From contig WQXO01000001.1 of assembly GCA_009784825.1 (NCBI GenBank), positions 1,599 through 65,598 on the forward strand: a stretch of 64,000 nucleotides of DNA, written 5' to 3'. This DNA is from Oscillospiraceae bacterium. GTDB taxonomy: Bacteria > Bacillota > Clostridia > Oscillospirales > Ruminococcaceae. The notes beneath the pieces were generated by a model, which was not told the origin of the DNA, did no database searches, and saw only the letters and a program-made list of their open reading frames with translations. This document shows, in pieces, positions 2,831 to 59,826 of the stretch; position 1 is the stretch's first letter, and every line of letters starts with the position of its first letter. Both the position numbers and the translations under genes were made by a program.

Positions 2831-4342
2831 TCATATACTTCCTATAATTTCAACAATATCGCTTGCCGTCATTCCCGATAGTGAGCGGGTTTCCGCTAAC
2901 TTGTCGGCGGCTAAACCGTGGAGGAATACTCCCAAGCAGGCAGCTTCAAACAGCTTCATGCCTTGTGCGGCAAGGGACGCAATTATTCCGGTGAGGACAT
3001 CACCCGTTCCCGCTTTTGCCAATCCTGCATTACCTGTTTTATTAACTGCGGTTCGCCCGTCGGGGGAGGCAATAACGGTATGCACGCCCTTCAGCACGAT
3101 TATTGCACCCGATTCCTTTGCGAACAGTTTCGCACTGTCAATCCTGTTTGTTTGGATTTCGTTTACAGGAGTTCCGGTCATTCGTGAAAATTCTGCGGGG
3201 TGTGGTGTGCATACAAGCTGTGAGTTGTCCTTTAAAATATTTATATTGCCCGAAATGCAATTTATTCCGTCTGCATCAAGAATTACGGGACAACGTGCAT
3301 TTTTAATGACATATTCCGTGATTTTTCGTGTTTCTGCGGTGACACCTAATCCGCATCCGATTGAAACTGCAGTCGCCTTTTGAAGCTCGGACGGGATTGC
3401 TTTTAACGCCGAATCGTTGATAAACCCACTCTTGTCCACCTCTAACGGGAGGAATACGGCTTCGGGAACAGCAGAGGCAATTGAAAAAACCACTTGCCCG
3501 GGAGAAGCAAGGGTGACTAATCCCGCTCCCGCTCTTACTGCGGCTTTTGTGGAAAGCTGTGCCGCTCCTATATACCGCTCGCTCCCCGCTATGTTAAGCA
3601 GCTTTCCGTAGCTACCCTTGTGTGAATTTTTAAGACGTTTCGGGCGGCAGAACATAATCGAGGAATCAATCAGGCGTGCATTGTTCATGTTAAAATCACT
3701 TACCGTTAACCCTATGTCTAAAAGAACAAGCTCACCGCAAAAATCACCGGCAGGGTGCGAAAACATACTTTTTTTATATGCACCGAGAACGTATGTAACA
3801 TTCGGGATAAAAGCACATGCCGCTCTTGCTCCGCTGTCGGAATCTATTCCGCTGGGTAAGTCGATTGATATTTTCAAAGCCTTACAGTTCTCGTTGACAT
3901 ATCTGAACAGCTCTGCCGTTTTTAAGTCCAGCTCCCCCTTGAAGCCTGTCCCGAAAACACAGTCTAAAACTATATGGCTGTTGACAAGTGCGGTTTTTAC
4001 GCTTTCCTCCCGCTCGGCAAACAGAACCGTGGGTAGGTTGGGTGAACGTCGTGCGAAAATCCCCCTTGCCGGGTCGCTTGCAGGCAGTCCCGTTAAAAAG
4101 ACGCACAAAACCTCTGCACCTGCTTCCTTAAGCAGTTCGGCGATAAGAAGTCCATCACCGCCGTTGTTGCCTTTTCCGCATAGGATAGTGAAGGTTTTCT
4201 CACGCACAGAGCCGACAAGTGCGGATATATTCGCAAAACAGGCGTTTGCGGCATTTTCCGCTAAAGTGCGGAGCGGCACACCTCGGCGGACGGCGTTTTG
4301 CTCGGCGGTTTTCATTTGGTCGGAAGTTACAATAAAGTCCAT
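2831..4342 (-). CDS. nnr: bifunctional NAD(P)H-hydrate repair enzyme (epimerase / ADP-dependent dehydratase)
   Basis: 503 aa. The N-terminal YjeF_N part has GKGNNGGDG. The C-terminal carbohydrate-kinase-like part has GPGLG-type (GCGLG) and AGTGD motifs. Confidence 0.9.
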   Translation of the reverse strand: MDFIVTSDQMKTAEQNAVRRGVPLRTLAENAANACFANISALVGSVREKTFTILCGKGNNGGDGLLIAELLKEAGAEVLCVFLTGLPASDPARGIFARRSPNLPTVLFAEREESVKTALVNSHIVLDCVFGTGFKGELDLKTAELFRYVNENCKALKISIDLPSGIDSDSGARAACAFIPNVTYVLGAYKKSMFSHPAGDFCGELVLLDIGLTVSDFNMNNARLIDSSIMFCRPKRLKNSHKGSYGKLLNIAGSERYIGAAQLSTKAAVRAGAGLVTLASPGQVVFSIASAVPEAVFLPLEVDKSGFINDSALKAIPSELQKATAVSIGCGLGVTAETRKITEYVIKNARCPVILDADGINCISGNINILKDNSQLVCTPHPAEFSRMTGTPVNEIQTNRIDSAKLFAKESGAIIVLKGVHTVIASPDGRTAVNKTGNAGLAKAGTGDVLTGIIASLAAQGMKLFEAACLGVFLHGLAADKLAETRSLSGMTASDIVEIIGSI

Positions 4343-4415
4343 TTTATTTTCCTAAATTTCGGCGTTATTTTTTATTAATTATATCATAAATTTTACCATA
4401 AATCAAGGGGCGAAT

Positions 4416-4750
4416 TTTTCAACATCATATGTGTTTTCTCATGCTAAAGCGGGGTTGACTGTTAAGCGATTTATAACATTTTCCACGAGGTTTTCAACAT
4501 CAATGTTAAAACCGCAGAGAAATCGACACAAAACTCGGTCGGTTTTCAACACTTTCAACGGGAAAACATGTGTTTTTACAGTCTGTAATGCTGTATTTAT
4601 ACATTGGGTTTATTGCGGAGGATTTTATACATAATGTTTAACTTGGTGGTTGTCATGTTCTTTTAACTTTTTCAACAGGATTTTAAACAATAATTTTACG
4701 GATATTGTCGAAATTTGTGATAAACAGTATGCTTGTACATGTTTTCAACT
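4416..4750 (+). promoter_or_regulatory. array of direct TTTTCAAC(A) repeats (DnaA-box-like) in the nnr / small-ORF divergent intergenic region
   Basis: Exact TTTTCAAC at 4416, 4491, 4543, 4669 and 4742, all on the plus strand. Variants are TTTTCCACG at 4479 and CTTTCAACG at 4552. Confidence 0.6.
4706..4712 (+). promoter_or_regulatory. Spo0A-box-like heptamer TGTCGAA
   Basis: Exact 0A-box core within ATTGTCGAAATTT, upstream of the small ORF and sigG. Confidence 0.3.
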
Positions 4751-4845
4751 TTGCATGGGGAATAGTCGGGGATATTTTTCCAATAATACAATCAGTAAAA
4801 TATTCGGGGTTTTATAGAAAACCTTCGGAAAGGAGCATGTTCATT

Positions 4846-5106
4846 ATGCTTAAAGGAGTGAACAAACTGATAGTAGAGGTCAGCAACCCCGACAGCGAGT
4901 TTTTTGAGCGGGCGATTTTCTTCGTGAAACCGCAGATGAAGAACACTCCGACAAGCGAGCTGAACAGAAATGCGAACAAGCTTTTAAACCAAGCCGGAAC
5001 AGCAAAAAATCGCAAGTGGCGGTCTCGTGTTGTTGCTATTTTCAGATTTGCGGGTGCGGTGGCACTCGGAGCGGCGGCAGCAACACTGATTAAGTTTTTG
5101 GCATAA
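4846..5106 (+). CDS. small tail-anchored membrane protein, unknown function
   Basis: AAAGGAG at about 4828-4834 favours the ATG at 4846 (MLKGVNKLIVEV..) over the ORF-track start at 4705. The C-terminus is a hydrophobic helix, AGAVALGAAAATLIKFLA. Confidence 0.5.
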   Translation: MLKGVNKLIVEVSNPDSEFFERAIFFVKPQMKNTPTSELNRNANKLLNQAGTAKNRKWRSRVVAIFRFAGAVALGAAAATLIKFLA

Positions 5107-5132
5107 TTTAACTGTTATATATTTGAATAAAA

Positions 5133-5173
5133 AACACCCCCTCGACAATACTCTAAGAGTGACGGGGGGTGTT
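5133..5173 (+). promoter_or_regulatory. hairpin that terminates the small ORF and/or sequesters the sigG SD and start
   Basis: ACACCCCC (5134-5141) pairs with GGGGGTGT (5165-5172). The 3' arm contains the G-rich SD and the GTG at 5169, followed by TTTTCCATTT. Confidence 0.55.
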
Positions 5174-5948
5174 TTCCATTTATTATAATAAAGTTGAAAT
5201 CAGCGGTGTGAACACAGCAAACTTAAAAGTCTTGAAAGAGGCGGAAAAAACCCGGCTTCTAAAATTGGTAAAGGGCGGCGACATGTCAGCCCGTGAGGAA
5301 TTAATCAACGGGAATCTACGGCTTGTTCTAAGCGTTATCCAGCGATTTTCGGGACGTGGAGAAAACCCCGACGATTTGTTTCAGGTCGGGTGCATCGGGT
5401 TGATTAAAGCGATTGACAATTTCGATATTACGCTGAATGTGAAGTTCAGCACGTATGCAGTGCCGATGATTTTAGGCGAGGTTAAGCGTTATCTCCGTGA
5501 CAACAATCAAGTCCGTGTAAGTCGTTCCTTGCGTGACTTAGCCTACCGTGCCATGCAAGCGAAGGAGAAGCTCATAAACGAGAAATCCCGTGAGCCGAAT
5601 GTCGAGGAAATTGCCAAGGAAATAGGCTCGAGGCGTGAAGATGTGGTTCTCGCATTAGAGGCAATCAGCGAACCGTTGTCACTGTATGAGCCGGTGTTCT
5701 CGGAATCGGGTGATACTATTTATGTTATGGACCAAATCGGCGACAACAACGATGACAATAACTGGCTTGATGAAATAGCGTTGAAGGAAGCAATCGGGCA
5801 TTTAGGGCAGCGGGAAAAGAAGATTCTTAATCTGCGGTTTTTTCAAGGTAAGACACAGGTGGAGGTTGCCGAGGAAATAGGGATTTCACAGGCACAGGTT
5901 TCCCGGCTTGAAAAAGGTGCATTAAATAAAATCAAGCGAAAGATATAA
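5169..5948 (+). CDS. sigG: sporulation sigma factor SigG (forespore, late)
   Basis: Close match to my memory of B. subtilis SigG: NKVEISGV.., NGNLRLVLSVIQRF, DDLFQVGCIGL.K.IDNFD, VKFSTYAVPMI.GE..RYLRDNN..RVSRSLRD. The exact start is uncertain (GTG at 5169 or slightly downstream). Confidence 0.9.
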   Translation: MFSIYYNKVEISGVNTANLKVLKEAEKTRLLKLVKGGDMSAREELINGNLRLVLSVIQRFSGRGENPDDLFQVGCIGLIKAIDNFDITLNVKFSTYAVPMILGEVKRYLRDNNQVRVSRSLRDLAYRAMQAKEKLINEKSREPNVEEIAKEIGSRREDVVLALEAISEPLSLYEPVFSESGDTIYVMDQIGDNNDDNNWLDEIALKEAIGHLGQREKKILNLRFFQGKTQVEVAEEIGISQAQVSRLEKGALNKIKRKI

Positions 5949-5954
5949 CAAAAA

Positions 5955-5990
5955 CAGGCTTTGGGTTTTTCCGAAGCCTGCATTATTTTC
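5955..5990 (+). terminator. rho-independent terminator after sigG
   Basis: CAGGCTT (5955-5961) pairs with AAGCCTG (5974-5980), followed by a T-rich tract. Confidence 0.7.
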
Positions 5991-6004
5991 CGTTTTTTCC
6001 AAAT

Positions 6005-6053
6005 GTATGCAACTTGCATACTATTGACACGTTATTATGTCTTATGATATACT
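6005..6053 (+). promoter_or_regulatory. sigma-A-type promoter with an abutting 17-bp perfect palindrome (candidate operator)
   Basis: Palindrome GTATGCAA-C-TTGCATAC at 6005-6021. TTGACA at 6024-6029, 18-nt spacer, TGaTATACT at 6045-6053. Confidence 0.55.
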
Positions 6054-6094
6054 AAATTCACAATAAAGCGATATAAAAACAGAGGTTTTATACC

Positions 6095-6538
6095 ATGTCT
6101 AATAAAAAAATACCCACTGACGTGCTTTTGAAAAGATTATTCAAAACCACTTCCATTGACCGCTTTATACACAGCTATAGCGAGGATTTGAACAACCCTC
6201 CCGTTTTCTGCGATTATATAAACTCGCTGTGTTCTCAAAAGGACATCTCACATGAAAGTGTTATAAAAAAAGCCGATATTGCAAGAACATATGGGCATCA
6301 GCTGTTCAGCGGCACAAGAAAACCGACACGAGACAGGGTTATTCAGCTTGCTTTCGGTTTTGAAATGGATTATGAAGAAACACAAAAGTTTCTTGTTGTT
6401 GCAAGGAAAAGCCAGCTTTACCCGAAAATCAAGCGAGATGCCATTATTATCTTCGCTTTAAAAAACGGGTATGGTGTTGTTGATGTTCAATCTGCTTTAT
6501 ATGACCTGTCTATTCCGATATTAGGGGAGGAACGGTAA
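6095..6538 (+). CDS. small helix-turn-helix (XRE-like) regulator
   Basis: 147 aa. HTH-like IKKADIARTYGHQLFSGTRKPTRDRVIQLAFG. Its stop lies 1 nt before the kinase start, indicating an operon. Confidence 0.5.
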   Translation: MSNKKIPTDVLLKRLFKTTSIDRFIHSYSEDLNNPPVFCDYINSLCSQKDISHESVIKKADIARTYGHQLFSGTRKPTRDRVIQLAFGFEMDYEETQKFLVVARKSQLYPKIKRDAIIIFALKNGYGVVDVQSALYDLSIPILGEER

Positions 6539-6539
6539 A

Positions 6540-8927
6540 ATGAACACCCTTGTCGAAAACTTTCTGAATACATCATTTGAAGAGGTTGCACTTCCTCTGG
6601 AAATATCAACCCGCTTTAATATACTTGAATGCGTCGGAAAGAACGATTTCGGCGAAACTTTCATTTTGTCAGAAAAAAGCACGAAAAACTTATATGTGCT
6701 TAAGTCCCACCCTGATTCAGAAAACCTGACATACAACGAAGCAGAACTGCTTAACGGGCTTAAACACAGGGGGTTGCCGAGCTTCGACAAAACAATCGCA
6801 CACGACGGAACATTATATGTGCTTCGTAAATACATAGGCGGCGAACCGTTAAATGAATACATAACACAAACACACAGTTATGAAAAAGCCATTGATGTAA
6901 TAATAAGCCTGTGTGATATATTGACGTTTTTGCATACACAGCCCGAGCCGATAATTCACCGTGACATAAAACCGTCAAACATAATAATAGACCCCGAAAC
7001 CGATAAAGTTATGCTGATTGATTTCGGCATTTCACGAAAATATTCAGAAACTGCCGAAGCTGATACTTCATATTTTGGGACACACAAATTCGCACCTCCC
7101 GAACAGTATGGCTTTGCCCAGACCGACTGCCGCTCTGACATATATTCCTTGGGAATGGTAATGCGTTATTGGTTAACGGGTTCAGCTGACAGAAAATCAA
7201 TTATCCCGGACAAAAAATTAGAACACATCGCTGTGAAATGCACTGCATTAGCTCCGGAAGACCGTTTCCAAACCGCCTCAGCTTTGCAGAACGCTCTTGT
7301 GAAATATAAAAATCGGATAAACAGAAAAATCCCGAAAAAGCATATTTTTGCAATATCGGCTTGTCTGGGTATTATTGCATTACTGTCAGCGGTGAATATG
7401 CTCGGCAATCAAGAAGACGCTCCCGTTGAAAAGGTTTTACCGCCGCCTAATGAAACTATTGCTTTTTCTGCGGCAGATGATACCGCTGTAATCTACCCCA
7501 CCCCCGACGGCTATAATGACAACGATTATCAAAAGATAATCAAGTTTATGTTACAGGGTGATAATCTTGAAAAAATCAACGAATATAAATTGTTGTTCGG
7601 TTATGAAAAGGAGGCGGTTGACCTTTCTGACCCGCAGACATGGAAGTGGGAGATGAACCCCGAATTATCCCCCGAAATATATGAAGCGATTCCTGCATGG
7701 GACGTTCTGCGAGGCGTTTACTGGGACGACAGCACCCCCAAAAGAATTCGCAAGGTCAGCTTTGAATCGGTGGGTGTGAGCGGTGAGCTTGACTTATCGG
7801 GGTTTATTAATATGACCACGCTGAACATTAACGGCGGGCGAGAGGGGGGCAGCTTTCACCCCGAAGTAAGCAGGGTCAACAGCATACACAGTCTTGATTT
7901 AAGCGGGTGTGTGAACTTAGGTTGGATGGGGATTGCCAACAACAGGATTTCGACACTCGATTTATCGAGTATTACCAGATTAAGTACATTGCATTGTCAC
8001 GGAAACCTGCTTACCGAGCTTGATATATCGGGGCTTCCTTATCTTGAAACGCTGTATTATCATGATAACTTGTTAAACAGGCAATATTACATTACCCCCG
8101 ACGGCTATAACGTAAATGATTATCAGAAATTCGTGACATTTTTATTCCAAGGCGATAATTTAGCGGTGATGATGGAGGTTAATGAGCATTTCGACATTAT
8201 TGACCCGGAAACATGGCACTGGGAAACCGGAAACATGTGGGTCACCCATGATGGCGTGTCAGGCAGTAACTTTAACGGGGTTTTGTGGGGTGATTATGGT
8301 AGTCAACGAAGAATTCGCCGCATTGATTTCTGGTATGACGAGGAACTTAAAACCACCGACAAGCTTTCGGGGGAATTCGACGTTTCGGGATTTTCCGAGC
8401 TTAAAATGCTCTATTTTAATTTTAATCAGATTACGAGTTTTAACCTTACAGGGTGCTTGTCTTTGCATACCTTAAACGTGAATACAAACCTGATTACCGA
8501 AATTGACCTTTCGACAAATATCATGCTGCGTCAATTAGATGTCAGCAGTAACTACCTTACAAGCATTGATATTTCTCATTTAACTGAACTAAGGGAATTT
8601 ATATGCAATCGCAACGAGCTTACAAGTCTTGTTATATCACCGGAAAACAACAGCGGGCTTCTGTTTTTATCGGCGAGCAGGAACAACTTAACCGATATTT
8701 CAATCTTTGAAAACCTGCCTAATCTGTGTTATCTCAGTATATGGAACAATGACATTGACTTGGAAAACAGCGACGTTCAAAAAAGCATTGCCGCTTTACA
8801 GGTGTCGATTGACACTAATATGGCGAACCCACCCGAGAATTATGTTCTGCCCGAATGGTTGTCGGCGGAGTTTATATTCAGACATTCCCCGCAGAACACA
8901 TCGGACATGGAAAATATAACCGCATGA
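6540..8927 (+). CDS. transmembrane Hanks-type Ser/Thr protein kinase with a duplicated leucine-rich-repeat ectodomain
   Basis: HRDIKPSNIII catalytic loop, DFGISR, and APE-like FAPPE. TM helix IFAISACLGIIALLSAVNML. Two similar extracellular modules (TPDGYN.NDYQK..F..QGDNL .. DP.TW.WE .. SGE.D.SGF) are each followed by LRRs (L..LD.S.N.L..L). Confidence 0.85.
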   Translation: MNTLVENFLNTSFEEVALPLEISTRFNILECVGKNDFGETFILSEKSTKNLYVLKSHPDSENLTYNEAELLNGLKHRGLPSFDKTIAHDGTLYVLRKYIGGEPLNEYITQTHSYEKAIDVIISLCDILTFLHTQPEPIIHRDIKPSNIIIDPETDKVMLIDFGISRKYSETAEADTSYFGTHKFAPPEQYGFAQTDCRSDIYSLGMVMRYWLTGSADRKSIIPDKKLEHIAVKCTALAPEDRFQTASALQNALVKYKNRINRKIPKKHIFAISACLGIIALLSAVNMLGNQEDAPVEKVLPPPNETIAFSAADDTAVIYPTPDGYNDNDYQKIIKFMLQGDNLEKINEYKLLFGYEKEAVDLSDPQTWKWEMNPELSPEIYEAIPAWDVLRGVYWDDSTPKRIRKVSFESVGVSGELDLSGFINMTTLNINGGREGGSFHPEVSRVNSIHSLDLSGCVNLGWMGIANNRISTLDLSSITRLSTLHCHGNLLTELDISGLPYLETLYYHDNLLNRQYYITPDGYNVNDYQKFVTFLFQGDNLAVMMEVNEHFDIIDPETWHWETGNMWVTHDGVSGSNFNGVLWGDYGSQRRIRRIDFWYDEELKTTDKLSGEFDVSGFSELKMLYFNFNQITSFNLTGCLSLHTLNVNTNLITEIDLSTNIMLRQLDVSSNYLTSIDISHLTELREFICNRNELTSLVISPENNSGLLFLSASRNNLTDISIFENLPNLCYLSIWNNDIDLENSDVQKSIAALQVSIDTNMANPPENYVLPEWLSAEFIFRHSPQNTSDMENITA

Positions 8928-26648: not shown

Positions 26649-26707
26649 TTAATAAACAAGCAGGGACGCCATATATGGCGTCCGTGCTATATCGGTAAGG
26701 AGCTACC

Positions 26708-57313: not shown

Positions 57314-57988
57314 CTATAATGGATTTTTTGTAATATTCACTCGCTTCCTCGGATAATTCATCGGGGTTTGCGATATTTTTTTAATTATAACAAGGCTTCT
57401 TTTATCCCCGCTCGGAAGTGTGTATTCTTTTATTTGAGCGATTTCTCCGCCGAGTAACCGCAGGGCATTGCTTGCCGAGGCTGATTCATCATCACTGCCT
57501 TTCATCGCCATTAACACACCACCGACTTCCACAAAAGGAAGACAATATTCACACAATGCTGCAAGGTTCGCAACCGCACGAGCGGTTACAAGCCCGAACT
57601 TCTCCCGATAATCAGAATTAAACGACAGCTCCTCACTTCTTCCTGTGATTACTGTACAATCCACATCAATTTCCTGTAACAGTGCTTTCAGATAATCTGT
57701 TCGCTTTTTTGCAGAATCGAGCAGGGTTATATCTAAATCGGGGCGAAACAATTTCATTGGAACACCCGGAAAACCCGCACCACTACCCACATCAAGTGTA
57801 ATTGTTCCACGTGGAACATCATATAATGCAAGCGGCATGATTGAATCAATGTAATGCTTTTCGATGATTTCCCGTGGTTCGGTTATACGAGTTAAGTTGG
57901 TGTGCTTATTATATTCAAGCATGAAGTCGGTCATTTTTTGAAACTTTTCGTTTTTTTGAATTGTCAACTGTAAATTGTCAATTGTCAA
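57314..57988 (-). CDS. rsmG: 16S rRNA (guanine527-N7)-methyltransferase RsmG (GidB)
   Basis: [15 protein letters not shown] motif and the gidA-gidB order. The proposed TTG start at 57988 sits 7 nt after AGGGAGGA and overlaps the mnmG stop as TTGA. The alternatives 58012 and 57934 are less supported. Confidence 0.85.
57803..57818. promoter_or_regulatory. parS: parS site (perfect palindrome TGTTCCACGTGGAACA) inside rsmG
   Basis: One position off the TGTTNCACGTGAAACA consensus (its A12 is G here, which completes the palindrome). Encodes ..VPRGT.. of RsmG. Confidence 0.8.
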
Positions 57989-57997
57989 TTGTTCGTC
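57959..57997. repeat. five tandem AATTGTC-type heptamers + CGTC (copy B) at the mnmG/rsmG junction
   Basis: aattgtc aactgta aattgtc aattgtc aattgtt cgtc. Translated as the RsmG N-terminus ([10 protein letters not shown]). Confidence 0.85.
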
Positions 57998-59826
57998 CTC
58001 CCTGCAAGCCAAATCAACAACACAGACACGTCTGCCGGATTAACCCCCGGAATCCTGCTTGCTTGTCCGACGTTCAAGGGTTTATACTTGTTTAGTTTTT
58101 CCCGTGCCTCCAGCCGAAGTCCCTGTATTAATGAATAATCCATATCCGCAGAAAGCGGTTTTGCTTCCAACTCCCTGACCGAACGAATTTTCTCGTTCTG
58201 CACCTTTATATACCCCTCATACTTTATCGCAATATCGATTTTCCGAACAATGTCATCGGGGATATGTTCCGGGGCGTATTCCTTATAGCTGATTTCGGGG
58301 CGTTTAATCAGATTATAAACCTTTTCTGTTTTTAAACGTGCAATTTCGTTTTCCATAATCACCTGTCGTTCTTTGAACTTGTCATATCGTTCTTTAGAGA
58401 GCAACCCCAATTCATATCCGGTTTCGCATAACCTTTCGGTAGCGTTATCTTGTCTTATACTCATGCGGTATTCCGAACGGGAGGTCATCATTCGATAAGG
58501 CTCATCGCACCCTTTTGTAACAAGGTCGTCAATCATCACGCCAATATAAGAGGTGGTTCTGTCGGGAATGTATTGTAGGGGCGAACTGTGTTCGCCCGTT
58601 GAATAAGATGCCATTTCTCCTTTAGACGGGCGAACGCAGTTCGCCCCTACAACCATTGTTGCATTTACACCTGCGATTAATCCTTGTGCTGCCGCTTCCT
58701 CATAACCCGACGTTCCGTTAAACTGCCCCGCTCCGTATAATCCCTTAATGCTCTTGAACTCTAATGTCGGGAACAATTCCAAAGGATTACAGCAATCGTA
58801 TTCAATGGCATATGCGGGGCGAATTACCTCTGCATTTTCTAACCCATTAATAGTCCTAATCAGCTTCAACTGCACTTCCTCAGGGAGCGAGCTTGACAGT
58901 CCCTGAATATAGTATTCCTCGGTGCCAAGTCCCATCGGTTCAATAAAAAGCTGGTGCCTGTCTTTATCGGCAAATCGCACTATTTTATCTTCAATGCTCG
59001 GACAATACCTTGCACCGGTTGCCTCAATCCGACCGGAATACATTGGTGAACGGTGCAGGTTCTCCCGAATTATATTGTGCGTTTCTTCATTTGTGTAGGT
59101 TATGTGGCAAAGGACTTTATTCTCTAATCTAAGCTCATTGTCAAAGCTGAACGGGGTAAGTGAATCCTCACCCGGCTGTTCTCCCATTTTTGCAAAATCA
59201 ATCGAACGCTTATGAACCCGTGCGGGTGTTCCTGTTTTGAACCGCCTTATTTCTATCCCCAGATTTTTCAAATTCTCGGTAAGCTGCATTGCCGGTGCAA
59301 GACCATCTGCCGCACTGTTATAGCTTGCCTCACCTACATGAATTTTCCCGCCGAGATAAGTTCCCGTGGTTATGATTACAGCTATAGCGGAATATTTTGT
59401 ACCGAGTCTGGTTTTAACACCTACAACCTTTTTATTTTCAACAAGTATTTCTACAATCTCACCCTGCTTAATCTCTAAATTCCCTTGCTTTTCCAAAACT
59501 CGCTTCATATATAAATGGTACTGCACTCGGTCAACCTGAGCCCGCAGTGAATGTACTGCCGCACCTTTCCCCGTGTTTAGCATACGGGATTGGAGCGTTG
59601 AAGCGTCTGCCGCCCTGCCCATCTCCCCACCTAATGCGTCAATTTCGGCAACCAACTGACCCTTAGCAGAACCGCCGATACTCGGGTTGCAGGGGAGATT
59701 TGCAATAGTATCCGCAGAAAGACAGAACACGGCAGTCCGCATACCGAGGCGTGAACAAGCCAATGCCGCTTCACACCCGGCATGACCTGCCCCTACGATT
59801 ATAATGTCGTAATTCTCAAGAAACAT
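57985..59826 (-). CDS. mnmG: tRNA uridine 5-carboxymethylaminomethyl modification enzyme MnmG (GidA)
   Basis: [19 protein letters not shown] motif, [12 protein letters not shown]-like [25 protein letters not shown]. Contains an extra ~20-25 aa segment encoded by a palindromic element. Confidence 0.92.
58575..58650. repeat. 76-bp nested palindromic element translated in frame within mnmG
   Basis: The 25-nt arms GTAGGGGCGAACTGTGTTCGCCCGT (58575-58599) and ACGGGCGAACGCAGTTCGCCCCTAC (58626-58650) are inverted repeats with 1 mismatch. Each arm is itself a hairpin (GGGCGAAC..GTTCGCCC). Confidence 0.8.

What the first reader, a model, noticed from the sequence alone, without database searches (positions are those of the whole stretch)
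58575..58650. 76-bp nested palindromic element translated in frame inside the conserved mnmG gene
**Seen in the sequence.** Two 25-nt arms are inverted repeats with a single mismatch, and each arm is itself a GGGCGAAC..GTTCGCCC hairpin. They flank a 26-nt spacer that contains AAAGGAGAAATG. On the coding strand the element reads through as [25 protein letters not shown] without a stop.

**Established comparison (from my memory of E. coli and B. subtilis MnmG).** The segment between ..AG(I/L)NA.. and ..YIGV(M/L)IDDL.. is about 16-17 residues. Here it is 36, so about 20-25 residues are extra and coincide with the palindrome. Small palindromic repeats that insert in frame into protein genes are known for Rickettsia palindromic elements, but I am not aware of them as a described phenomenon in Clostridia.

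**Inference.** A miniature mobile or REP-like element has been tolerated as a surface loop in MnmG. Alternatively, it forms an RNA structure with a regulatory role.
Basis: partly seen in the sequence, partly recalled or inferred. Interest (0 to 1): 0.65.

Follow-up and report, generated by a model that had tools for sequence, protein, structure and literature searches.

The report
REP hairpin pair inside mnmG
Two copies of a 24-base selfish DNA hairpin (a REP element, the kind handled by RAYT transposases) sit head-to-head and in frame inside the tRNA-modification gene mnmG of an uncultured termite-gut Clostridia bacterium, lengthening a floppy surface loop; the event is real, but it is of a kind already described in other bacteria.

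Summary
The palindrome is real. It has 27-nt arms (58573-58599 / 58626-58652, 26/27 complementary). Each arm is a GTAG-footed 8-bp hairpin, and both are read through in frame in an otherwise intact mnmG (613 aa).

It is not a one-off. The 24-nt unit GTAG-GGGCGAAC-NNN-GTTCGCCC-G occurs in at least 119 genome stretches (the scan was truncated), mostly gut Clostridia MAGs, and in 48 viral stretches. Variant units keep the stem through compensatory changes.

Three things identify it as a REP element of the RAYT subclass-2.4 kind:
- its anatomy: GTAG foot, three G-C pairs at the stem base, inverted pairs, 'double-foot' forms;
- its presence inside RayT/TnpA_REP-like genes, whose profile hits E. coli TnpA_REP (4ER8);
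- published reports of in-frame intragenic REP copies for this kind.

In mnmG the two units most likely bracket native loop codons (KGEM), so AAAGGAGAAATG is probably not an RBS. Removing both units keeps the frame. The insert is a low-confidence coil between two helices, and the rest of the fold matches MnmG structures (TM 0.86).

Verdict: selfish REP DNA tolerated in a variable linker. It is a new member of a known kind, and I found no earlier report from Clostridia or termite gut.

Unresolved: whether it arrived as one REPIN or two units, and whether the source genome has a RAYT and further copies.

The parts
57985..59826 (-). mnmG (gidA) ORF, 613 aa. Intact, host of the element.
   Evidence: ORF. 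Pfam GIDA 4.4e-158, plus GIDA_C_1st and SAM_GIDA_C. PDB MnmG 2ZXH E = 2.9e-176. AF2 model pTM 0.82, TM 0.86 to 2ZXH and 9HIP.
58573..58652 (.). Whole nested palindrome: two inverted REP units plus spacer. The GTAG feet are at the outer ends.
   Evidence: 27-nt arms, 96% complementary. (fold z = -9.2 and -8.6).
58627..58650 (-). REP unit 1 in gene order: GTAGGGGCGAACTGCGTTCGCCCG (24 nt), translated VGANCVRP (residues 393-400).
   Evidence: Identical to the second most common unit variant of the family (loop TGC).
58599..58626 (-). 28-nt spacer between the two 24-nt units (mRNA sense TCTAAAGGAGAAATGGCATCTTATTCAA). Single-copy and AT-rich (32% GC).
   Evidence: The Logan unitig 58574-58650 has depth 25.1, equal to the flank depth, while the arms reach 556-2127.
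58612..58623 (-). Codons AAA GGA GAA ATG = K402-G-E-M405. Probably the native mnmG loop (orthologs have [KR]G[ER]x here).
   Evidence: MAFFT alignment A1 places KGEM under KGRE/KGEP/RGEE of the orthologs. The removal test keeps the frame.
58575..58598 (+). REP unit 2 (plus-strand orientation): GTAGGGGCGAACTGTGTTCGCCCG (24 nt). Read in reverse by the gene as ..T-GEHSSPL (residues about 410-417).
   Evidence: Identical to the most common unit variant (loop TGT).

Best explanation
The element is a head-to-head pair of REP (repetitive extragenic palindrome) units. Each unit is 24 nt: a GTAG foot, an 8-bp G+C-rich stem with three G-C pairs at its base, a 3-nt loop and a closing G.

Such units are the DNA hairpins recognised as single strands by REP-associated tyrosine (Y1/HUH) transposases (RAYT/TnpA_REP). 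Here the relevant RAYTs resemble subclass 2.4 (Bertels group 4). I put the family assignment at about 0.85-0.9.

In this termite-gut Oscillospiraceae-like genome, two consensus-perfect units have landed in the variable linker. This linker joins the last helix of the FAD domain of MnmG to the C-terminal helical domain.

The units are tolerated for three reasons:
- A unit is exactly 24 nt, so it never shifts the frame.
- Only one of its six reading frames contains a stop (the TAG of GTAG).
- The site is a disordered surface loop whose length already varies among relatives.

Most likely (about 0.6) the two units sit on either side of native loop codons (..V|unit|S-KGEM-ASYS.|unit|..YIP). The gene then gained 2 x 8 codons, and AAAGGAGAAATG is simply K-G-E-M.

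Shown: the anatomy, the family, hairpin covariation, the link to RAYT genes in other genomes, in-frame read-through, and loop location in a model.

Inferred: that a RAYT put the units there, that MnmG remains active, and that the insert has no function of its own (selfish passenger, neutral or mildly costly because of the -57 kcal/mol mRNA hairpin).
For: Family:
- These loci hold 253 units matching GTAGGGG-N13-CCC. Of the 52 distinct units that do not match the seed pattern, 43 have all five free stem positions Watson-Crick paired, with about 20 different stems.
- 98.2% of cells are paired, and 102 cells show a double change against 18.4 in shuffles (0 of 500 shuffles reach this).
- 118 of the 253 units lie in inverted pairs with GTAG outside. 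The modal gap is 21-29 nt, and the mnmG pair has 28.

RAYT link:
- L112, L011 and L114 encode proteins of about 180 aa with the motifs NH[LI]H, WQ and YIxxNP. Pfam Y1_Tnp gives 1e-5.
- JGI names family members 'REP element-mobilizing transposase RayT'.
- The family profile hits E. coli TnpA_REP 4ER8 at 5.7e-11.
- Two units lie inside these genes and are kept by compensatory codon pairs (GRPQVAPT 80, GRTQFAPT 18, no mixed forms).
- Published descriptions of subclass 2.4 match: 3 G-C pairs at the stem base, double-foot REPs, REPs in frame inside tnpA_REP (PMC6006769). REPs inside ORFs are reported in PMC3733652.

Source sample:
- In the source metagenome the arm depth is 556-2127 against 17-25 for the flanks. 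The unitig that includes the spacer (58574-58650) has flank depth.
- RAYT-like HUH-coding pieces are present in the same runs.

Gene context:
- 16 of 19 orthologs have 9 residues between NA and YIP. The query has 29.
- Deleting the two 24-nt units keeps the frame, whereas deleting the 76-nt GTAG..CTAC block does not.
- Residues 397-416 have pLDDT below 50 and form a coil between helices 375-397 and 427-438.
- The rest of the model superposes on MnmG structures at TM 0.86.
Against: - Only these two units exist in 64 kb (plus about 6 kb in L001) of the source genome, and no RAYT homolog is in the window. High copy number and a cognate RAYT in this genome are therefore not shown.
- The high arm depth may come from other organisms in the metagenome.
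- No close relative (nearest MnmG 74% identical) gives an empty site, so the insertion boundaries are inferred from distant orthologs.
- The 28-nt gap falls in the family's modal spacing, which also fits arrival as a single REPIN.
- 12 nt (ASYS) next to unit 2 are not explained by a 24-nt unit. They may instead reflect the longer loops seen at the same spot in the three closest relatives.
- There are no RNA or protein data.
- The RAYT subclass assignment rests on motifs and published descriptions, not on the authors' HMMs.
Confidence: 0.6

Rival explanations
1. Same REP family, but the pair arrived in one step as a REPIN: a 76-80-nt doublet carrying its own spacer. It replaced or displaced part of the native loop, and an accompanying small indel made the net change a multiple of three.
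For: - Inverted GTAG-outside pairs are the commonest arrangement in the family, and the 28-nt gap lies in the modal class.
- In some genomes doublets with similar spacers recur at different sites: L018 and L093, the L009 pairs, and the 48-nt form across many MAGs. So doublets can replicate as units.
- Arm complementarity extends 2+1 nt beyond the 24-nt units.
Against: - 76 and 80 are not multiples of 3, and removing the 76-nt block breaks the frame.
- A 78-nt version would leave only 3 residues where 16 of 19 orthologs have 9.
- The spacer carries K-G-E exactly where orthologs have [KR]G[ER]. My rough estimate of this arising by chance is below 1-2%.
- The spacer is single-copy in the source metagenome and unrelated to the spacers of other doublets.
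Confidence: 0.28
2. The hairpin is a functional RNA or DNA signal within mnmG. Candidates are an internal ribosome-binding site plus ATG giving a C-terminal MnmG fragment, an attenuator or terminator, or an RNase target regulating mnmG-rsmG expression.
For: - The RNA fold is very stable (-56.6 kcal/mol, z = -9.2).
- AAAGGAGAAATG resembles a Shine-Dalgarno sequence plus a start codon.
Against: - No terminator-like site: neither hairpin is followed by a T run.
- No Rfam family reaches threshold; only generic long-hairpin miRNA models appear, far below their gathering scores.
- The GGAG-to-ATG spacing is only 2 nt (read from the sequence).
- The motif aligns with the native loop codons of orthologs.
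- None of the other 119 best MnmG homologs carries REP-coded peptides.
- The same units occur mostly between genes, in many unrelated contexts.
Confidence: 0.05
3. The extra loop is an adaptive protein feature of this lineage's MnmG (for example a contact for MnmE or tRNA), and the palindromy is secondary.
For: - The three closest relatives also have 6-13 extra residues at the same loop.
- The loop lies at the junction to the C-terminal domain, which contacts MnmE. This rests on general knowledge of the MnmE-MnmG complex and was not tested here.
Against: - The extra residues of the relatives are unrelated in sequence and do not come from GTAG units.
- Both units are identical to the family's DNA consensus. 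That points to constraint or recency at the DNA level, not the protein level.
- The segment is predicted to be disordered.
Confidence: 0.05
4. Assembly artefact or chance symmetry.
For: The arms are repeats that break de Bruijn graphs. Logan contigs end at 58600 and start at 58622.
Against: - The same junctions and a 77-nt unitig spanning arm-spacer-arm at flank depth are present in two runs (2017 and 2019).
- They are also present in the ENA assembly of 257 kb.
- The reading frame is intact through the element.
- Chance expectation is about 0.02 matches.
Confidence: 0.02

Closest known systems
REP / BIME sequences with their RAYT (TnpA_REP) transposases, specifically Quentin et al. 2018 subclass 2.4 = Bertels et al. 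2017 RAYT group 4 (PMC6006769, PMC5581495)
   Same: - 5' GTAG foot directly at a G+C-rich hairpin.
- Three G-C pairs at the stem base.
- 'Double-foot' GTAG...CTAC forms, and inverted dimers.
- REP copies inserted in frame inside the tnpA_REP gene itself.
- Scattered distribution across phyla.
- RAYT motifs NHxH / WQ / YIxxNP and a length of about 180 aa.
   Different: - Described mainly from Cyanobacteria and Bacteroidetes. Here the bulk is gut Clostridia (Oscillospiraceae, Acutalibacteraceae, Ruminococcus), plus phage contigs.
- The stem is short (8 bp).
- In these RAYT genes the two units sit at fixed positions flanking the HUH-coding segment, not in a variable region only after HUH.
- No RAYT was seen next to the mnmG copy.
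Intragenic GTAG/CGTC REPs (Di Nocera, De Gregorio & Rocco 2013, PMC3733652)
   Same: GTAG-tagged palindromes lie wholly inside ORFs of known proteins and are read in frame. The authors propose they are neutral when located in linkers or loops.
   Different: That paper's main text does not mention Firmicutes or Clostridia. Its examples lie mostly in replication and repair genes. Here the host is mnmG, with two inverted units bracketing a few native codons.
REPINs (Bertels & Rainey 2011, PMC3116915)
   Same: Two REPs in inverted orientation separated by a short spacer, able to fold into one long hairpin.
   Different: A REPIN is defined as the replicating unit, with the same doublet at many sites. 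Here only the 24-nt arms are repeated. The spacer is single-copy and looks like host coding sequence.
Rickettsia palindromic elements (RPE; Ogata et al. 2000, cited from my own knowledge; RPE-1 is mentioned in PMC3733652)
   Same: Palindromic selfish repeats found in frame inside conserved protein genes, adding surface peptide segments.
   Different: RPEs are roughly 100-150 bp, restricted to Rickettsia, lack the GTAG-hairpin unit and have no known RAYT link. The resemblance is of outcome, not of family.
MITEs such as Correia/NEMIS or cyanobacterial Nezha (own knowledge)
   Same: Small non-autonomous repeats with inverted ends that can fold into hairpins and are occasionally co-translated.
   Different: MITEs have terminal inverted repeats recognised as double-stranded DNA by DDE transposases, and they make target-site duplications. 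Here each arm is itself a hairpin with a GTAG foot, and no direct duplication flanks it.

Membership tests
REP (GTAG-type repetitive extragenic palindrome) | Conserved 5' GTAG (or GTGG) tetranucleotide 0-2 nt from the foot of a hairpin | tested here: met
   Both units read GTAG followed immediately by GGGCGAAC-NNN-GTTCGCCC. GTAG is invariant in the 85 distinct units, but that is partly by construction of the search pattern.
REP (GTAG-type repetitive extragenic palindrome) | Short G+C-rich stem-loop whose pairing, not its sequence, is conserved | tested here: met
   98.2% of cells paired; 5 of 8 pairs have changes on both sides; 102 double-change cells against 18.4 in shuffles (0 of 500); slid controls give 29-49% paired. 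43 of 52 non-seed units have 5/5 inner pairs.
REP (GTAG-type repetitive extragenic palindrome) | Many copies per genome | tested here: inconclusive
   Only 2 units in the 64-kb window and none in the extra 6 kb of L001. Arm depth is 20-100 times the flank depth in the source metagenome, but other organisms may contribute. Related MAGs show several units per 8-kb block, for example 7 in L009 and 9 in L118.
REP (GTAG-type repetitive extragenic palindrome) | Predominantly extragenic location | tested here: met
   This holds for the family. Among about 250 units in 119 loci, the only convincing in-frame cases are ValS (L103) and the RAYT genes. The other ORFs spanning units look spurious. The mnmG copy is therefore an exception within its family.
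REP (GTAG-type repetitive extragenic palindrome) | Association with a RAYT/TnpA_REP gene in the same genome | not testable with these tools
   Met in other genomes: L011, L112 and L114, with Pfam Y1_Tnp 1e-5 and 4ER8 5.7e-11. No homolog in the window. The rest of the 257-kb contig or MAG could not be read. RAYT-like pieces exist in the same metagenome runs.
REP (GTAG-type repetitive extragenic palindrome) | Binding and cleavage of the single-stranded hairpin by its RAYT | not testable with these tools
   Needs a biochemical assay.
REPIN | Two inverted REPs with a short spacer forming one long hairpin | tested here: met
REPIN | The doublet including its spacer is the replicated unit (same doublet at several sites in the genome) | tested here: not met
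   The spacer-containing unitig 58574-58650 has depth 25.1, equal to the flanks, while the arms reach 556-2127. The spacer is unrelated to those of other doublets. Caveat: the whole source genome was not seen.
RAYT subclass 2.4 / group 4 (for the associated transposase family) | Motifs NH[IFV]H, WQ, YIxNNP; about 194 aa; REPs long or double-foot and inserted within the gene (Table 1 of PMC6006769) | tested here: inconclusive
   Observed: NHLH or NHIH, WQKS, YIYENP or YIRRNP, 172-183 aa, two REP units in frame in the gene, and double-foot REPs in L017, L043 and L087. The motifs are close but not identical (L at the u position, E/R instead of N). The authors' HMMs are not available.
MITE (DDE-transposase-derived) | Terminal inverted repeats flanked by a direct target-site duplication | tested here: not met
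   The flanks are ..ATGGTT | ... | AATACA..; the shared TT/AA is inverted, not direct. Each arm is a self-contained hairpin.
Rickettsia palindromic element (RPE) | Rickettsia-specific repeat of roughly 100-150 bp (own knowledge) | tested here: not met
   The repeated unit is 24 nt, it has a GTAG foot, and its hosts are Clostridia and other phyla. Sequence similarity to RPE consensus sequences was not tested.
Intrinsic terminator / known RNA family | Hairpin followed by a U run, or a match to an Rfam model at its gathering score | tested here: not met
   0 terminator-like sites. The best Rfam hits are generic miRNA hairpins at 35 bits against gathering scores of 70-111.

The most novel reading that the evidence does not exclude
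The 24-nt unit may be more than junk. It could belong to a horizontally spreading RAYT-REP system of gut Clostridia, also seen in phage contigs and in other phyla with the identical hairpin.

Its unit length of exactly 8 codons, with 5 of 6 frames free of stops, would let it colonise coding sequence as an in-frame 'peptide cassette'.

Its own transposase gene carries two recognition hairpins at fixed positions around the HUH-coding segment. These are kept by compensatory codon changes. That would allow the enzyme to act on its own gene (self-regulation or an on/off DNA rearrangement).

Pairs of units may also be created in situ around about 21-29 nt of target DNA, a mode of REP spread not yet described.
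Probability: 0.12. Interest if true: 0.7.

Novelty: new member of a known kind. Interest (0 to 1): 0.4.

Why it matters
- It extends the REP/RAYT system, best studied in Proteobacteria and Cyanobacteria, to uncultured gut and termite-gut Clostridia. There the same 24-nt hairpin is very abundant: its depth is up to about 100 times that of the host genome in the sample, and it breaks assemblies.
- It gives a clean example of how such DNA can sit inside a conserved housekeeping enzyme. The unit is 8 codons long, almost stop-free, and lands in a disordered linker.
- For annotators, peptides such as [22 protein letters not shown] and GRTQFAPT in Clostridia proteins flag REP-derived segments or spurious ORFs.
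- For REP biology, a pair that brackets native codons, and the fixed hairpins inside the RAYT gene, are testable hints about how units insert and how the transposase is controlled.

Tried and rejected
- **Other copies in the window.** None found, even with 3 mismatches or a relaxed GTAGGGG-N13-CCC pattern.
- **RAYT in the window.** phmmer of the L112 RAYT against all window ORFs of at least 60 aa gave no hit.
- **RAYT gene between inverted units 600-750 nt apart** (L070, L057). There are only unrelated or spurious ORFs.
- **CRISPR-like reading of the regular arrays in L118 and L045.** Rejected: the whole 64-nt unit is repeated and there are no variable spacers.
- **Decayed GTAG units in the extra loop residues of the closest MnmG relatives** (P0002, P0003, P0006). 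None, and no units on their contigs; only small unrelated hairpins.
- **Empty-site alleles in reads.** Runs X1 and X2 are kept only as Logan contigs. The 'skip' joints come from low-depth, roughly 90%-alike relatives with unknown letters in between, so they are not informative.
- **RNA evidence.** No RNA run is listed.
- **Other ORFs that contain units** (L020, L026, L036, L062 and others). Judged spurious from their low-complexity translations. L006 and L104 carry the unit upstream of the real start codon.
- **Terminator, promoter and Rfam scans** gave nothing.
Full report
**1. Observation**

The sequence is as described. The repeat finder reports arms 58573-58599 and 58626-58652, 27 nt each, 26/27 complementary and 26 nt apart. 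Each arm contains a perfect GGGCGAAC-NNN-GTTCGCCC hairpin. It is the strongest short-range inverted repeat in the 64-kb window. The arm pattern occurs twice against 0.02 expected.

The region folds at -56.6 kcal/mol as RNA (z = -9.2) and at -33.5 kcal/mol as DNA (z = -8.6).

It lies inside a 613-aa ORF on the minus strand (57985..59826). That ORF is a full-length MnmG/GidA: Pfam GIDA 4e-158 plus both C-terminal domains, and PDB 2ZXH at 3e-176. The element is read through as [25 protein letters not shown], residues 393-417.

**2. It is an insertion relative to orthologs**

The source is an ENA assembly of a termite-gut metagenome. The nearest MnmG in 5.8 billion proteins is only 74% identical; named neighbours are Oscillospiraceae MAGs. 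No close relative is therefore available.

In an alignment with the 19 best orthologs, 16 have exactly nine residues between the conserved NA and YIP motifs, for example NA-AMKIKGREQ-YIP. The query has 29. PDB MnmG chains show the same gap. Among the 120 best MnmG homologs, only the query contains the peptides encoded by the arms.

**3. The arm is a member of a large repeat family**

I scanned one genome per GTDB species for GTAGGGGCGAACNNNGTTCGCCC (20 specified bases, about one chance match expected).

Most are gut Clostridia MAGs: Oscillospiraceae, Acutalibacteraceae, Ruminococcus, Faecousia, Christensenella. Isolates are included (R. flavefaciens MA2007, Ruminococcus sp. YRD2003, Acetivibrio sp. 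MSJd-27). The same unit also appears in Zoogloeaceae, Helicobacteraceae, Coriobacteriales and cyanobacterial genomes. A scan of IMG/VR gave 48 further stretches.

Many hits sit at contig ends, as expected for repeats that break assemblies.

In the source metagenome the Logan-contig depth of the arms is 556-2127, against 17-25 for the mnmG flanks. A 77-nt unitig spanning arm-spacer-arm has exactly the flank depth. So the arms are highly repeated in that community, the spacer is not, and the element is really present in the genome in two runs.

**4. Anatomy of the family**

The repeated unit is 24 nt: GTAG, an 8-bp stem starting with three G-C pairs, a 3-nt loop (mostly TGT or TGC) and a closing G.

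I used a pattern that fixes only GTAGGGG...CCC. Of the 52 distinct units that do not match the seed pattern, 43 have all five free stem positions paired, using about 20 different stems.

On 85 distinct units, 98.2% of cells pair. Five of the eight pairs change on both sides. There are 102 double-change cells against 18.4 in shuffles (0 of 500), and slid controls pair at 29-49%. The hairpin, not the sequence, is what is kept.

Of 253 units:
- 118 are in inverted pairs with GTAG outside, the arrangement seen in mnmG;
- 85 are solitary;
- 33 are direct neighbours;
- 17 are inverted with GTAG inside.

Gaps in GTAG-outside pairs cluster at 0 (a 48-nt form shared by many MAGs) and at 21-29 nt; mnmG has 28. 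Four single 'double-foot' hairpins (GTAG...CTAC) also occur. Spacer sequences are unrelated between genomes.

**5. Link to a transposase**

Three loci (L112, L011, L114) encode proteins of about 180 aa with the motifs MPNH[LI]H, WQKSF and YIxxNP. These proteins contain two units in frame, translated VGANCVRP and GRPQVAPT or GRTQFAPT.

- L011 passes Pfam Y1_Tnp (1e-5, above the cut-off).
- The family has 2795 members at E <= 1e-5, some named 'REP element-mobilizing transposase RayT' by JGI.
- Its profile hits E. coli TnpA_REP (4ER8) at 5.7e-11, from the HUH motif to the Y motif.
- In 120 members, GRPQVAPT (80) and GRTQFAPT (18) occur with no mixed forms. VGANCVRP (101) alternates with VGATCGRP and VGASCARP. 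These are codon pairs that keep the stem.

The literature describes this combination for TnpA_REP subclass 2.4 (RAYT group 4): REPs with three G-C pairs at the stem base, double-foot REPs, REP insertions in frame within the tnpA_REP gene, and a scattered distribution across phyla (PMC6006769; PMC5581495).

REPs lying wholly inside ORFs of known proteins are reported in PMC3733652. That paper's main text does not mention Firmicutes or Clostridia.

My own set contains a second housekeeping example. ValS in L103 has three tandem REP-derived 30-nt repeats in frame, about 18 residues more than T. thermophilus ValRS at that point.

**6. How the mnmG copy is built**

The unit has a stop in only one of six frames, the TAG of GTAG. 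Its length is exactly eight codons.

- Removing the 76-nt GTAG..CTAC block from mnmG breaks the frame.
- Removing the two 24-nt units keeps the frame and leaves [18 protein letters not shown].
- Removing 24 + 36 nt leaves NATMVVKGEMQYIP, which has the nine-residue ortholog length.

MAFFT on its own placed KGEM under the KGRE, KGEP and RGEE of the orthologs. I therefore read AAAGGAGAAATG as native loop codons bracketed by two units. The RAYT gene shows the same layout, with its two units bracketing the native HUH-coding segment.

The alternative is a single REPIN insertion with a compensating indel. It stays possible because the 28-nt gap is the modal gap of the family and because doublets with related spacers do recur in some genomes. 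No empty-site relative exists to settle this.

The three closest relatives have 6-13 unrelated extra residues at the same spot, without GTAG units. So the linker tolerates length change.

**7. Consequence for the protein and the RNA**

An AlphaFold2 model (pTM 0.82) gives pLDDT below 50 and coil for residues 397-416, between helices 375-397 and 427-438. The model superposes on Aquifex and E. coli MnmG, including the MnmE-MnmG complex, at TM about 0.86. Together with the lack of any counterpart in solved MnmG chains, this fits a disordered surface linker, although solvent exposure was not measured.

No terminator-like site and no Rfam family matches. GGAG lies 2 nt from the ATG, which is too close for a good start site (my own judgement). 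No RNA runs are available.

**8. Verdict**

This is selfish REP DNA of a RAYT-associated family, tolerated in frame in a variable linker of MnmG. It is real and the family is clearly identified, but the phenomenon is already described. What is new is the host group (uncultured gut and termite-gut Clostridia), the gene, and the likely two-unit architecture around native codons.

Three things were not shown: a RAYT and further copies in this genome (only 2 units in about 70 kb), activity of the enzyme, and retention of the insert in the protein.

Noticed in passing
L112 5561-6172 (units 5801-5823 +, 5972-5994 -); L011 308-898; L114 1-363: RayT/TnpA_REP-like genes carry two inverted REP units at fixed positions inside the ORF, flanking the HUH-coding segment. 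Across 120 family proteins the encoded peptides vary only by compensatory codon pairs (GRPQVAPT 80, GRTQFAPT 18, none mixed; [24 protein letters not shown]). Selection therefore acts on the nucleic-acid hairpin inside the transposase gene.
   Followed up: partly
L103 5975-6070 (ValS ORF 4174-6912): Valyl-tRNA synthetase of a termite-gut Eubacteriales MAG has three tandem 30-nt REP-derived repeats in frame ([29 protein letters not shown]). That is about 18 residues more than T. thermophilus ValRS at that loop, and it is a second housekeeping gene carrying this family.
   Followed up: partly
L025 166-213, L036 5796-5843, L055 2421-2468, L059 4025-4072, L068 867-914, L071 970-1017 and 6479-6526, L078 988-1035, L084 2112-2159, L090 522-569: A 48-nt form made of two directly abutting inverted units with different stems (GGGCGTTC or GGGAGACC, then GGGCGAAC) recurs in many different MAGs. 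It looks like a conserved doublet (REPIN-like) variant.
   Followed up: no
L118 2800-3150 and 208-296: Tandem arrays of a 64-65-nt repeat, each copy holding one REP unit plus the same flanking sequence. They resemble BIME-like clusters, not CRISPR, because there are no variable spacers.
   Followed up: partly
L124-L171 (IMG/VR); for example L140 1267-2710 and L171 1997-3440: The identical unit occurs in 48 viral or proviral stretches (153 units in 430 kb). L140, L150, L156 and L171 each show two units about 610 nt apart. L140 and L171, the two I read, carry the same region, with REP arrays on both sides of a small gene next to a large, possibly structural gene. Phages may be a vehicle for spread between hosts.
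   Followed up: partly
L009 (Zoogloeaceae, 7 exact units in 8 kb), L005/L010 (Helicobacteraceae), L045/L116 (Coriobacteriales), L023/L075 (cyanobacteria): Exactly the same 20 specified bases occur in genomes labelled as other phyla. Several come from the same termite-gut MAG study. This is either horizontal spread of the RAYT-REP system or mis-binned contigs in some cases.
   Followed up: no
L122 (P0003) loop codons; L121 (P0002); L123 (P0006); P0013 alignment columns about 342-368 of A1: The three closest MnmG relatives have unrelated 6-13-residue additions at the same loop. Some are encoded by small hairpins (P0003: CCCCCTTTCGCAAAAGGGGG). P0013 has a 27-residue insertion at another site, and P0003 a 10-residue one near column 144.
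   Followed up: partly
window 58599-58626 compared with the family-wide gaps: The gap between GTAG-outside inverted units is modal at 21-29 nt, although the spacer sequences are unrelated. The mnmG pair (28 nt) fits this mode even though its spacer looks like host codons. This is unexplained.
   Followed up: partly
window 26659-26688; window about 28000: There is a 30-nt near-perfect palindrome (AGCAGGGACGCCATATATGGCGTCCGTGCT). The GC skew changes from positive to negative near 28 kb, probably following gene orientation.
   Followed up: no
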